Assembly (NCBI GenBank): GCA_018402365.1
Contig: JAGYJD010000002.1
Coordinates: 2,859-66,858, forward strand
Reading direction: 5' to 3'
Length of the DNA: 64,000 nucleotides
DNA from: Candidatus Nanopelagicales bacterium
GTDB taxonomy: Bacteria > Actinomycetota > Actinomycetes > S36-B12 > UBA5976
The position numbers and the translations under genes are program-made. The notes under the pieces are model-generated. The model did not search any database. It was not told the DNA's origin and saw nothing but the letters and a program-made list of their open reading frames with translations. The first letter of the stretch is position 1; the number at the start of each line of letters is the position of its first letter. Shown piece after piece: positions 24,141-35,171 of the stretch.

Positions 24141-25535
24141 ATGAATTGGACAATTGAAGAATTAAATCTACTGTTTAAAGCTTACGATGTGCGTGGAATT
24201 TACCCTGAGCAAATTAACGAAGACTTGGTATATCAAACTGGTCGTGCTTTCGTAGAGGTATTAAATATTCGAAGTGAGGCGGGCGGACCAAATAAGGTTT
24301 TAATTGCGCATGACATGCGCCCATCAGGACCAAGTTTGGTTTCAGCCTTTGCTCGCGGTGTCTGCGATCAAGGAGCAGAGGCAATTTTGATTGGCTTAGC
24401 GAGTACTGACGGGCTTTATTTTGCTTCTGGAAAATTACATTTACCCGGCGCCATGTTTACCGCAAGCCACAATCCTGCCCAATACAACGGGATCAAATTG
24501 GCGCGACCGGGTGCAGCACCTGTGGGTAAAGCAACTGGATTGCGAGAAATAAAAGAATTAGTAGCTGAGGGAATTAAAGATTTTCAAGGACCAAAGGGCC
24601 AAACTTCTGAGCAAGAAATGGTTTATGAGTACGCAGACTTTTTAAATTCACTAGTTGATTTAAGTCAAATTAGAAAGTTGAAAGTAGTGATAGACGCAGG
24701 AAACGGCATGGGTGGTTACACAGCGCCTAAGGTGCTGCAGCACAAGAATTTAGAAATAGAAAGTATGTATTTTGAATTAGACGGAAACTTTCCAAATCAT
24801 GAGGCCAATCCCATTGAACCAAAAAATTTAGTAGATCTACAAAAAAGAGTGCAAGAAGTAAAAGCAGATTTAGGAATAGCCTTTGATGGCGATGCTGATC
24901 GAGCCTTTTTTGTAGATGAAAATGCCGAATTAATAACACCGTCCGCGGTGACTGCTTTAATTGCAGAGCGAGAGTTAAAGCGCGAGCCAAATTCTGCCAT
25001 TATTTATAACTTGATCACATCTAGAGCAGTAGCCGAAGTGGTGAAAGAAAATGGTGGAACACCCGTCCGAACCAGAGTCGGTCACTCATTTATAAAACAG
25101 GTAATGAAAGAGCACAACGCTATATTTGGTGGAGAGCATTCAGGGCATTTTTATTTTCGCGATTTTTGGTTTGCAGATAGCGGAATGCTGGCAGCACTTC
25201 ACGTTTTGGCTGCTTTGGGGGAGCAAGACCAAGAAGTTACTATTTCTAAAATGATGAAGCGCTACAACAGGTATTTTGCGTCTGGCGAAATAAATACCAA
25301 AGTTGCTTCACCACAACAAACTAGTGAAAGGGTCAAAGACTTTTTCGCATCCAATTTTGAAGCTCAGATCGATGATTTAGATGGCCTCACCTTTTCCACT
25401 GACGACTGGTGGGTGAATGTGCGAGCCTCGAACACCGAACCTTTACTAAGATTCAATGCAGAGGCGAAAACCCAAGAATTGCTCTTTGAGATTCGAGATC
25501 GGGTTTTAGCAGTAATTCGAGAGGATGAGAAATGA
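24141..25535 (+). CDS. manB: phosphomannomutase/phosphoglucomutase
   Basis: Active-site loop FTASHNPAQYNG, metal loop AFDGDADR, and GGEHSGH. Confidence 0.88.
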   Translation: MNWTIEELNLLFKAYDVRGIYPEQINEDLVYQTGRAFVEVLNIRSEAGGPNKVLIAHDMRPSGPSLVSAFARGVCDQGAEAILIGLASTDGLYFASGKLHLPGAMFTASHNPAQYNGIKLARPGAAPVGKATGLREIKELVAEGIKDFQGPKGQTSEQEMVYEYADFLNSLVDLSQIRKLKVVIDAGNGMGGYTAPKVLQHKNLEIESMYFELDGNFPNHEANPIEPKNLVDLQKRVQEVKADLGIAFDGDADRAFFVDENAELITPSAVTALIAERELKREPNSAIIYNLITSRAVAEVVKENGGTPVRTRVGHSFIKQVMKEHNAIFGGEHSGHFYFRDFWFADSGMLAALHVLAALGEQDQEVTISKMMKRYNRYFASGEINTKVASPQQTSERVKDFFASNFEAQIDDLDGLTFSTDDWWVNVRASNTEPLLRFNAEAKTQELLFEIRDRVLAVIREDEK

Positions 25536-25726
25536 CGTCGGTTATACGTCCTGAGCTCTTAGAAATTTTGGCCTGCCCCTGCCCAGCGCATGCGGCAGTA
25601 GAAGTTTCCAAAGACGATCGCCACATTGTTTGCACTAAGTGTGAAACCAAGTTTCCGATCAAAGATGCAATCCCCGTTATGTTGCTAGATGAAGCCGAGG
25701 CGGGCCCCCGAGGCATCGGCGGCTAA
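25532..25726 (+). CDS. Trm112 family small zinc-ribbon protein
   Basis: 64 aa with LLEILACPC...IVCTKCETKFPIKDAIPVMLLDEA. There is a 4-nt overlap with manB. Confidence 0.7.
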   Translation: MTSVIRPELLEILACPCPAHAAVEVSKDDRHIVCTKCETKFPIKDAIPVMLLDEAEAGPRGIGG

Positions 25727-33926: not shown

Positions 33927-34562
33927 ATGATATTTGTCGGTATTAGAGATTTGGTGTTTCCGCGAACTTGTGTTTTTTGCGGGACCGGCAGGGAATACCT
34001 TTGTCAATCATGCTTTAGTAATTACTTTGCCAGGCCACAATTCACTAGCATAGAAAATATCCCGACCCTATCTATGAGTAGATATCAAGATCTAGTGAGA
34101 GAGTTGGTAATTCGACATAAAGATCATCACTTTATAGGAATTAGAAAATTTTTGTCACAGAGTCTTTCGCTAGGAATAAAGTTATTAGATTTACCCCAAG
34201 ACTGCCAGATTATTTCGATACCAACCGCACAAAAAGAAATCCGAAAACGTTTTGACGATCCTGTCCGCTATATGGTTTCCGACGCTGCTTGTATGGTTAA
34301 AAAAAACTATAATAAAAATATTTTGAAATTGAATCGCTCAAAGCGAGATCAGGTTGGTTTAAACCATAATGAACGGGAGATAAATATGACAGACGTTTTT
34401 CGGGTAAATCAGATTGTGAAGCAGGTAATAGTTTGTGACGACGTAGTGACGAGTGGCGCCACGCTACGCGCTGCCACTCGCACACTGAACGAGGCAGGAA
34501 TCGAAGTTTTTGCGAATATTTGTGTGGCAAATACTCCAAAAACCCTGCAATATTTGAAGTAA
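33927..34562 (+). CDS. comF: ComF family phosphoribosyltransferase-like protein
   Basis: An N-terminal Cys pair (CVFCG...CQSC) and a C-terminal PRT loop (VIVCDDVVTSGATL). Its position between lpqB and hpf matches Rv3242c. Confidence 0.7.
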   Translation: MIFVGIRDLVFPRTCVFCGTGREYLCQSCFSNYFARPQFTSIENIPTLSMSRYQDLVRELVIRHKDHHFIGIRKFLSQSLSLGIKLLDLPQDCQIISIPTAQKEIRKRFDDPVRYMVSDAACMVKKNYNKNILKLNRSKRDQVGLNHNEREINMTDVFRVNQIVKQVIVCDDVVTSGATLRAATRTLNEAGIEVFANICVANTPKTLQYLK

Positions 34563-34586
34563 TTGATTCACCAGTAGGTTTGTCTC

Positions 34587-34833
34587 ATGGCACTAAACCG
34601 GGTTCGTGGTTGCGCTGGTGAATTCCAGCAAGCCGAAGCTAGCCGCAGGCAAAACGGTCCACGTAAGTCAAGGAAACTTGTATGAGCACGGTGCGGTTTA
34701 GAAGTAAGTCCTGCCTTGCTGCTTCTTGCAGATCAAGAAGAAAAGCAAGAGACGGTCAGTAGTAATAAAAAGTTGCGAAAACTGCTGCAGGCGGATGTGG
34801 GGACGAAAACCAGGTCGAACGGTGCAGTGCCAT
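34587..34833 (+). ncRNA. candidate structured RNA or structured hpf leader (unclassified)
   Basis: It lies in the 300-bp comF-hpf gap. An interrupted closing helix pairs 34587-34611 with 34808-34833, and a strong hairpin spans 34715-34749. See findings. The strand is assumed from the flanking genes. Confidence 0.3.
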
Positions 34834-34862
34834 ACCAAATCAAAACTCTATGAGAGGTAAAT

Positions 34863-35171
34863 ATGGAAATCACTATTCGTGGTCGACATGCAGATATAAC
34901 CCCAGCCTTTAAGGAGCACGCAGCTGCGCAAGCGGGTCAAGTGGACCGGTTTGGTATCAATATTGCAGTTTTAGATGTTGAAGTTACACACGAAGAAAAT
35001 AAACGCCAAACTAAGCAAGGCTTTAAGGTTGACTTGACGGCTAAAGGGGCGGGCACCTTGCTGCGGGCTACTGCTAAGGCTCCACAAATGACTGCTGCGC
35101 TAGATGCCGCTGTAAAGAAGTTAGAATTGCAATTGCGAAAAGTTTCTGAGAGAAAACAAAATCACAGATAA
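34863..35171 (+). CDS. hpf: ribosome hibernation promoting factor, short form (RaiA/HPF domain only)
   Basis: MEITIRGRHADITPAFKEHA... sigma-54-modulation/S30EA fold; 102 aa; SD GAGAGG. Confidence 0.85.
   Translation: MEITIRGRHADITPAFKEHAAAQAGQVDRFGINIAVLDVEVTHEENKRQTKQGFKVDLTAKGAGTLLRATAKAPQMTAALDAAVKKLELQLRKVSERKQNHR

What the first reader, a model, noticed from the sequence alone, without database searches (positions are those of the whole stretch)
34563..34862. 300-bp GC-enriched, highly structured non-coding region upstream of hpf (candidate new ncRNA or riboregulatory leader)
This is the longest non-coding gap in a window where most junctions are under 60 bp or overlapping, and it looks richer in G+C than other spacers. 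ATGGCACT (34587-34594) pairs with AGTGCCAT (34826-34833). The helix continues with ACCG/CGGT (34597-34600 / 34820-34823), TTCG/CGAA (34603-34606 / 34816-34819) and TGGTT/AACCA (34607-34611 / 34808-34812). Together these form an interrupted closing helix of about 21 bp that encloses about 195 nt. Inside is a strong hairpin, CTTGCT-G-CTTCTTG-cagat-CAAGAAG-AAA-AGCAAG (34715-34749). ACGGTGC occurs twice (34688-34694 and 34819-34825), as does GCAGGC (34645-34650 and 34788-34793). TCTCAT (34583-34588) can alternatively pair with ATGAGA (34850-34855), which overlaps the hpf Shine-Dalgarno GAGAGG, so an on/off translational switch is conceivable. The rod-like architecture is reminiscent of 6S/Ms1-type RNAs, but I cannot place it in a known family. 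A 26-codon ORF (34682-34762, MSTVRFRSKSCLAASCRSRRKARDGQ) with an AAGGA SD 7 nt upstream is an alternative or additional reading.
Basis: seen in the sequence. Interest (0 to 1): 0.6.

Follow-up and report, generated by a model that had tools for sequence, protein, structure and literature searches.

The report
Known raiA (ModT) noncoding RNA gene
The 300-base gap between comFC and hpf holds a full-length copy of the raiA-motif (ModT) RNA, a widespread and intricately folded bacterial noncoding RNA that is already catalogued but whose biochemical job is still unknown, so the element is real but not new.

Summary
The comFC-hpf spacer is the longest truly non-coding gap in the window, it is G+C-enriched, and it holds a conserved, highly structured RNA.

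It is not a new RNA. Window 34593-34827 (+) matches Rfam RF03072 (raiA RNA, also called ModT) over the full model, at 147.4 bits against a gathering score of 101.3. It is the only Rfam hit in the window and a single copy in the genome. Every published hallmark is present, and it belongs to the P2+P8 subtype of Nocardioides raiA. Across nine relatives (42-75% GC) the published fold is 92.6% paired, with 34 compensatory pairs.

The 26-codon ORF and the Shine-Dalgarno-occlusion switch are both absent from the closest relative. Nothing supports a 6S/Ms1 likeness.

Small additions:
- A TAnnnT -10 box sits 17-19 nt upstream of the Rfam model start in 38 of 38 Actinomycetia loci, so the RNA has its own promoter.
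- No terminator lies before hpf, whose start is 29 nt downstream.
- The RNA was found in only 3 of 19 genomes of this Nanopelagicales genus.
- No GGDEF gene was found in any of the 19.

This scan has already found raiA RNAs in at least 17 other genomes.

The parts
34575..34580 (+). Probable -10 promoter hexamer TAGGTT (actinobacterial TAnnnT type). It predicts a transcription start at about 34586-34588.
   Evidence: A TAnnnT hexamer starts 17-19 nt upstream of Rfam model position 1 in 38 of 38 Actinomycetia raiA loci (GC 42-75%). Only one other TAnnnT occurs in the 70 nt upstream of any of them. Inferred; no transcript data.
34587..34833 (+). raiA motif (ModT) noncoding RNA, about 247 nt, subtype with P2 and P7-P8.
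   Evidence: Rfam RF03072 matches 34593-34827 at 147.4 bits (gathering 101.3), model positions 1-209 of 209. P1a extends 6 bp beyond the model on each side. The structure is supported by covariation.
34587..34611 (+). P1 5' strand: P1a 34587-34601, GU bulge 34602-34603, P1b 34604-34606, P1c 34607-34611.
   Evidence: Pairs with 34808-34833. Helix 1 (P1a plus P1b) has 10 of 18 pairs with compensatory changes in relatives.
34808..34833 (+). P1 3' strand: P1c 34808-34812, GGU bulge 34813-34815, P1b 34816-34818, P1a 34819-34833.
   Evidence: The GU and GGU bulges match the conserved bulges described in PMC12968392.
34614..34629 (+). P2 hairpin (5 bp, loop UGAAUU), the optional stem present in 42% of family members.
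   Evidence: It appears as an insertion relative to the Rfam model. Four of 5 pairs covary.
34632..34658 (+). P3a/P3b bent hairpin. Its apical loop GCCGCA (34642-34647) forms pseudoknot PK1.
   Evidence: Pairings verified. Invariant or changed on one side only in relatives. Mapped from PMC12968392.
34659..34680 (+). P4 5' strand (34659-34663, pairs with 34796-34800) and P5 hairpin (34669-34680, GAAA loop).
34688..34707 (+). PK-linker: PK2 strand CG (34689-34690, pairs with 34804-34805), PK1 strand UGCGGU (34692-34697), and the conserved single-stranded UUAGAAGUAA (34698-34707).
   Evidence: The linker matches the published UUAGA(C/A)GUAA (PMC12968392).
34710..34791 (+). P6 (34710-34714/34787-34791), long P7 hairpin (34715-34749) and P8 (34753-34784) with an E-loop (AGUA/GAA).
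33927..34562 (+). comFC-like gene (211 aa: double zinc ribbon plus phosphoribosyltransferase domain), the usual upstream neighbour.
   Evidence: Pfam PF00156 and PF18912. comFC lies upstream in 74% of raiA loci (PMC10861870).
34863..35171 (+). hpf/raiA gene, short form (102 aa, S30AE domain only). It starts 29 nt after the RNA's P1 helix.
   Evidence: Pfam PF02482, 66.3 bits. No terminator-like site lies between the RNA and the gene.

Best explanation
Window 34587-34833 (+) is the gene for a raiA-motif RNA (Rfam RF03072, called ModT in Clostridioides difficile). It sits in the family's canonical place between comFC and the ribosome-hibernation gene hpf. The host is a small (about 1.3 Mb, 43% G+C) genome whose two close relatives found in a named genome collection include one labelled as a Candidatus Nanopelagicales MAG. 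Shown here: family membership, the full published secondary structure including both pseudoknots, covariation, single copy, and gene context. Inferred here: the RNA is transcribed from its own housekeeping-type promoter (-10 TAGGTT at 34575-34580), starting at about the first base of the P1a helix. It then folds into the compact P1-P8 plus PK1/PK2 architecture solved by cryo-EM for relatives. By analogy with the clostridial knock-out and complementation studies, it acts in trans as a stable structured RNA, probably in a ribonucleoprotein, that influences the transition between growth states. It is not a riboswitch for hpf. No terminator and no room for a second promoter lie in the 29 nt before hpf, so hpf is probably transcribed by read-through from the RNA's promoter or from the upstream operon. 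The biochemical activity of the family is unknown in the literature, and this work does not resolve it.
For: The covariance-model match is full-length, at 147.4 bits against a 101.3 gathering score, E=1e-36. It is the only Rfam hit in the window even at E<=0.05. The genome holds a single copy. All published hallmarks are present: P1a/b/c with GU and GGU bulges, P2, P3a/b, P4, P5, P6, P7, P8 with E-loop, PK1, PK2, and the UUAGAAGUAA linker (against PMC12968392 and PMC10861870). On nine relatives, 92.6% of cells pair, against 30-42% in slid controls. Thirty-four pairs have changes on both sides, and 0 of 500 shuffles reach the observed values. comFC lies upstream and hpf downstream on the same strand. 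The family was found in 77 of 151 sampled genomes of the class, always as a single hit. A -10 hexamer sits at a fixed distance in 38 of 38 loci; the chance estimate is about 1e-14 over six lineage groups among the first nine loci. A KhpA gene lies between rpsP and rimM, and a KH-domain gene lies after yidC, cut by the contig end. Trans action is shown in Clostridia (PMC10861870, PMC11706538).
Against: The transcription start, the 3' end, the abundance and trans action are therefore all inferred. The RNA ends only 29 nt from the hpf start with no terminator, which would also fit a leader. Rfam still labels the family 'Cis-reg; riboswitch'. The RNA was not found in 16 of 19 genomes of the genus, so it is dispensable in close relatives. 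Thermodynamic folding alone is unremarkable (z = -1.67).
Confidence: 0.93

Rival explanations
1. The element is a cis-acting leader or riboswitch of hpf. Alternative pairing of TCTCAT (34583-34588) with ATGAGA (34850-34855) would hide or expose the Shine-Dalgarno sequence.
For: The RNA ends 29 nt before the hpf start with no terminator between them. In many Actinomycetia the RNA-to-hpf distance is only about 25-60 nt. Rfam labels the family 'Cis-reg; riboswitch'.
Against: The proposed pairing is absent in the closest relative, where the 5' flank reads GAGGGAT and the 3' flank holds no complementary ATCCCTC. TCTC lies upstream of the predicted transcription start. Genus g28 keeps the RNA at about 165 bits directly upstream of secA, with no S30AE gene found in any of its five genomes. 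The reverse also holds: 8 congeners keep hpf without the RNA. Deletions in two Clostridia are rescued in trans (PMC10861870, PMC11706538), and the authors state that expression platforms are not typical of the family.
Confidence: 0.05
2. The region encodes a 26-residue peptide (34682-34762) with an AAGGA ribosome-binding site.
For: The ORF and an AAGGA 7 nt upstream are present.
Against: The ATG is ACG in the 83%-identical relative, with no in-frame upstream start. In seven other relatives the equivalent codon is TTG, TCG, CTG or CCG, and the frame's end and length vary from 15 to about 95 codons. The shared STVRFRSKSC stretch merely reflects the invariant PK1, linker and P6 nucleotides. There is no Pfam match. 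The AAGGA lies in the P5 hairpin.
Confidence: 0.01
3. It is a new RNA class, or a 6S/Ms1-like rod that binds RNA polymerase.
For: There is a long closing helix and high structure content.
Against: The region is a full-length, above-threshold match to raiA. No 6S or other family matches at E<=0.05. The covariation-supported fold is multi-branched with two pseudoknots, not a rod with a central bubble.
Confidence: 0.01

Closest known systems
raiA motif RNA / ModT (Rfam RF03072). Closest studied example by subtype: the 253-nt Nocardioides sp. Iso805N raiA RNA (cryo-EM, PMC12968392).
   Same: It has the same eight stems (P1-P8), both pseudoknots, the GU and GGU bulges in P1, the UUAGA(A/C)GUAA linker, the E-loop in P8, and a long P7 (13 bp here, 14 bp in Ns-raiA). 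It shares the comFC-RNA-hpf gene order and the single copy per genome.
   Different: The host is a low-GC, genome-streamlined freshwater lineage. P2 is short (5 bp). P1a has a 2-nt internal mismatch that is fully paired in the closest relative. A few core positions differ from the relatives' majority: A at 34637 where 8 of the 9 aligned copies have U (mapping to U66 of Ns-raiA), A at 34654 (mapping to G83), and A at 34808 (mapping to G234). The adjacent hpf is the short 102-aa form.
Clostridium acetobutylicum raiA RNA and Clostridioides difficile ModT (PMC10861870, PMC11706538).
   Same: They share the same family and core fold, a dedicated housekeeping-type promoter, and comFC upstream.
   Different: The clostridial RNAs lack P2. 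They end at or near their own terminators or exist as short and long isoforms, and they are often not next to hpf. Their knock-out phenotypes (sporulation, aggregation, c-di-GMP level) have no obvious counterpart here. No GGDEF gene was found in any of the 19 genomes of this genus, and sporulation is not expected in this lineage (my own knowledge).

Membership tests
raiA motif RNA (Rfam RF03072) | Covariance-model score at or above the curated gathering score, over the full model. | tested here: met
   147.4 bits against 101.3; model positions 1-209 of 209; E=1.3e-36.
raiA motif RNA (Rfam RF03072) | Closing stem P1 in three segments, separated by the conserved GU and GGU bulges. | tested here: met
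   P1a 34587-34601/34819-34833, GU 34602-34603, P1b 34604-34606/34816-34818, GGU 34813-34815, P1c 34607-34611/34808-34812. Compensatory changes occur in relatives.
raiA motif RNA (Rfam RF03072) | Core of P3a-P3b and P4 with two pseudoknots (PK1, PK2). | tested here: met
   All pairs are complementary in the window. In nine relatives they are 96-100% paired but nearly invariant, so conservation supports them rather than covariation.
raiA motif RNA (Rfam RF03072) | Conserved single-stranded linker UUAGA(C/A)GUAA between PK1 and P6. | tested here: met
   UUAGAAGUAA at 34698-34707.
raiA motif RNA (Rfam RF03072) | P6 with either a small hairpin or the P7-P8 multi-stem domain carrying an E-loop. | tested here: met
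   P6, P7 (13 bp) and P8 with AGUA/GAA are present. P7 and P8 covary.
raiA motif RNA (Rfam RF03072) | Single copy per genome, typically downstream of comFC and upstream of raiA/hpf. | tested here: met
   There is one hit above threshold in the 1.34-Mb assembly. comFC-like and S30AE genes flank it on the same strand.
raiA motif RNA (Rfam RF03072) | Expressed as an abundant, discrete transcript that acts in trans. | not testable with these tools
The only indirect support is the -10 box conserved in 38 of 38 loci.
Riboswitch / cis-regulatory leader | Conserved expression platform: a terminator, or a helix that sequesters the Shine-Dalgarno sequence. | tested here: not met
   No terminator-like site was found on the + strand. 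The proposed SD pairing is not conserved in the closest relative. The RNA and hpf occur without each other in other lineages.
6S / Ms1-type RNA | A match to the 6S/Ms1 models, and a rod with a central bubble. | tested here: not met
   No such Rfam match at E<=0.05. The supported fold is branched and pseudoknotted.

The most novel reading that the evidence does not exclude
The comparative pattern may constrain the unsolved function of raiA RNA. A lineage not expected to sporulate (my own knowledge) keeps a fully intact raiA RNA, although no diguanylate cyclase (GGDEF) gene was found in any of the 19 genomes of its genus. At least 8 congeners have lost the RNA yet keep hpf; KhpA was found in 17 of the 18 other genomes of the genus. 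Another small-genome actinobacterial genus keeps the RNA but has no hpf. This would mean the RNA's core job is independent of c-di-GMP signalling, sporulation and HPF. In addition, in Actinomycetia the RNA may be the promoter-proximal part of a raiA-RNA-hpf co-transcript driven by one conserved promoter.
Probability: 0.4. Interest if true: 0.35.

Novelty: already known. Interest (0 to 1): 0.15.

Why it matters
The element itself adds nothing new, since a standard Rfam annotation would label it. Its modest value is comparative. raiA/ModT is one of the most widespread structured bacterial RNAs that still lacks a known biochemical function. A genus of about 1.3-Mb genomes in which sister species have or lack the RNA offers natural knock-outs for gene-content and metatranscriptome comparisons. 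No c-di-GMP cyclase was found in any of these genomes. The fixed-distance promoter and the terminator-less junction with hpf in Actinomycetia also give a testable transcript model.

Tried and rejected
- **MFE folding:** the z-score was only -1.67, so it is not evidence by itself.
- **Consensus promoter/terminator scan:** it found no promoter-like or terminator-like site on the + strand. The TTGACA/TATAAT-type scan is unsuited to actinobacterial TAnnnT promoters, which I then tested by position across loci.
- **RNAalifold consensus:** it recovered P1, P2, P5 and P7 but mis-folded the pseudoknotted core. I replaced it with the published model, mapped by hand.
- **26-codon ORF:** rejected.
- **SD-occlusion pairing:** rejected.
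- **Deletion scar:** I tested whether the short comFC-hpf spacers of raiA-less congeners align collinearly to the two ends of the window's spacer. The alignment scores were not above shuffles (z -0.7 to 1.3). The shared TAGGTTT and ACCAAATC strings in two species may therefore be chance, and I make no claim.
- **c-di-GMP machinery:** it does not track raiA presence, because GGDEF was found in none of the 19 genomes.
- **KhpA:** it does not track raiA presence either, being found in 18 of 19 genomes.
- **KhpB Jag_N domain:** not detected. A KH-domain gene after yidC is cut by a contig end, so KhpB status is open.

Full report
**Observation**

The region 34563-34862 lies between a comFC-like gene (33927-34562; zinc ribbon plus phosphoribosyltransferase domain) and a 102-aa hpf gene (34863-35171; S30AE domain). 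Upstream are mtrB and lpqB, and downstream is secA.

The exception is the second GCAGGC, which is one base to the left, at 34787-34792.

The gap is 48% G+C, and the RNA proper is 51%. The window is 43% and the other spacers of 60 nt or more are about 40%.

A crude gene call gave three other long 'gaps'. All three turn out to contain ORFs: a 184-aa ORF, an 80-aa ORF and a 64-aa ORF. This is therefore the longest non-coding stretch in the window.

Minimum-free-energy folding alone is unremarkable, with z = -1.67.

**Identity**

A scan of the whole window against Rfam 15 gave one hit. RF03072, raiA RNA, matches 34593-34827 on the + strand at 147.4 bits against a gathering score of 101.3. The E-value is 1e-36 and model positions 1-209 of 209 are covered.

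A permissive scan found nothing else at E<=0.05. The genome (1.34 Mb, 47 contigs, 88% complete) has a single copy.

The two stretches that the alignment treats as insertions are the optional P2 hairpin and a long P7.

**Anatomy**

I mapped the published model (PMC10861870, PMC12968392) onto the window.

| Element | Window coordinates |
|---|---|
| GU bulge | 34602-34603 |
| P1b | 34604-34606 / 34816-34818 |
| GGU bulge | 34813-34815 |
| P1c | 34607-34611 / 34808-34812 |
| P2 | 34614-34629 |
| P3a/P3b | 34632-34658 |
| PK1 | 34642-34647 / 34692-34697 |
| P4 | 34659-34663 / 34796-34800 |
| P5 | 34669-34680, with a GAAA loop |
| PK2 | 34689-34690 / 34804-34805 |
| Exposed linker UUAGAAGUAA | 34698-34707 |
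| P6 | 34710-34714 / 34787-34791 |
| P8 | 34753-34784, with an AGUA/GAA E-loop |

This is the P2-plus-P8 subtype, as in the Nocardioides RNA solved by cryo-EM.

**Relatives and covariation**

The family search found full-length copies in nine genomes of the same order (GC 42-75%), counting this one, plus one copy cut by a contig end. In seven of the nine, the RNA lies between comFC and hpf.

I counted the published structure, with both pseudoknots, on an alignment of the nine:
- 92.6% of cells form standard pairs, against 30-42% when partners are slid by 1-3 columns.
- 34 pairs have changes on both sides.
- 0 of 500 shuffles reach any of the observed measures.

Covariation is concentrated in P1a, P1b, P2, P5, P7 and P8. 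The core helices (P3, P4, P6, PK1, PK2) are almost invariant.

In a sample of the class, 77 of 151 genomes had a match, always a single hit.

- **The ORF.** In the closest relative (83% identical DNA) the ATG is ACG, with no other in-frame start. In the other relatives the equivalent codon is TTG, TCG, CTG or CCG, and the frame ends anywhere from 15 to about 95 codons later. The shared 'STVRFRSKSC' simply translates the invariant PK1, linker and P6 bases.
- **The SD-occlusion pairing.** The TCTCAT/ATGAGA pairing is absent in that same relative. Half of it lies upstream of the predicted transcription start.
- **The 6S/Ms1 likeness.** No 6S-like model matches.

**Promoter**

In the first nine loci, the only TAnnnT hexamer in the 60 nt upstream lies 11-13 nt before the first base of the extended P1a.

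With 29 more loci from the class, 38 of 38 have a TAnnnT starting 17-19 nt before Rfam position 1. Only one other TAnnnT occurs anywhere in the 70 nt upstream of any of them.

Background frequencies in these G+C-rich loci are 0.0002-0.016 per position. For the first nine loci, the chance estimate over six lineage groups is about 1e-14.

In the window the hexamer is TAGGTT, at 34575-34580. I infer a dedicated housekeeping-type promoter with a start at about 34587. This matches the dedicated sigA promoters reported for clostridial modT (PMC11706538).

**The 3' side**

No terminator-like site lies between the RNA and hpf. The hpf start codon is 29 nt after P1.

Among the 19 loci where a pattern test recognised hpf downstream, the median distance is 32 nt. 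Only the closest relative has a T-run there.

hpf is therefore probably reached by read-through. This differs from the Clostridia, where terminators or isoforms are described (PMC11706538).

**Distribution within the genus**

Of the two close relatives found in a named genome collection, one is labelled a Candidatus Nanopelagicales MAG. The other record is labelled 'uncultured Bifidobacterium sp.'.

Within the genus, only 3 of 19 genomes hold the RNA. The covariance model with normal filters and a direct DNA search agree on this.

Eight other congeners have comFC and hpf assembled side by side, with a spacer of only 46-112 nt and no raiA match even at E<=1. In those species the RNA is genuinely missing while hpf stays.

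The converse also occurs. Five genomes of another small-genome genus (g28) have the RNA at about 165 bits directly upstream of secA, and no S30AE gene was found anywhere in them.

So the RNA and hpf are separable in both directions, which argues against an obligatory cis relationship.

I could not show a deletion scar; the alignment scores were not above shuffles.

**Links to proposed functions**

ModT loss raises c-di-GMP in C. difficile (PMC11706538). Here no GGDEF domain was found in any of the 19 genomes of the genus, including the three with the RNA, which are 88-93% complete.

KhpA, a reported binding partner, is encoded between rpsP and rimM and is found in 18 of 19 genomes regardless of the RNA.

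A KH-domain gene after yidC, the usual KhpB/Jag position, is cut by a contig end, and no Jag_N domain was detected.

**Verdict**

The interpretation as a structured ncRNA is right, but the element belongs to a family described in 2017, studied genetically in 2024, and solved by cryo-EM in 2025-2026.

This scan has already met it in at least 17 other genomes. It is an ordinary member in its canonical context.

The fixed-distance promoter box, the terminator-less junction with hpf, the patchy presence within one genus, and the lack of any GGDEF hit are minor additions, not a new kind of thing.

Noticed in passing
window 34863-35171: hpf here is the short form (102 aa, S30AE domain only), and secA starts 30 nt later. 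Most other Actinomycetia loci with a complete downstream frame have long forms of about 196-242 aa. The raiA-less congeners have a different short form of about 120 aa that is only 48-56% identical.
   Followed up: partly
L030-L034 (genus g28, family f18; five genomes of 1.2-1.7 Mb): raiA RNA (about 165 bits) sits directly upstream of secA. No S30AE/HPF domain was found anywhere in these five genomes. The RNA is retained after loss of hpf.
   Followed up: partly
all 19 genomes of the window's genus: No GGDEF (diguanylate cyclase) domain was found in any genome; completeness is 62-94%. The genus appears to lack c-di-GMP synthesis.
   Followed up: partly
L003 (G022, same family, another genus): Here raiA RNA follows comFC but is followed, 79 nt later, by a 401-aa ORF with hydrophobic stretches instead of hpf. 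I did not run this ORF against any protein family library.
   Followed up: no
window 25532-25726 (+): A 64-aa ORF with a Cys-rich N-terminus (ILACPCPAHAAV...CTKCETKFPIKDAIPVMLLDEA) fills a 194-nt G+C-rich 'gap'. It looks like a Trm112/UPF0434-type small zinc-ribbon protein. That resemblance is from memory and was not tested.
   Followed up: no
L029 (contig CAZXCT010000004.1): The record is titled 'uncultured Bifidobacterium sp.'. Yet its hpf protein is 87% identical to the window's, and its raiA RNA region is 83% identical in DNA. The other close relative is labelled Nanopelagicales. The organism label looks wrong.
   Followed up: no
G004 contig C21 (L010/L013/L028): The contig ends inside the raiA RNA gene, so the copy is truncated at model position 30. 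The assembly may have broken at this conserved element.
   Followed up: no
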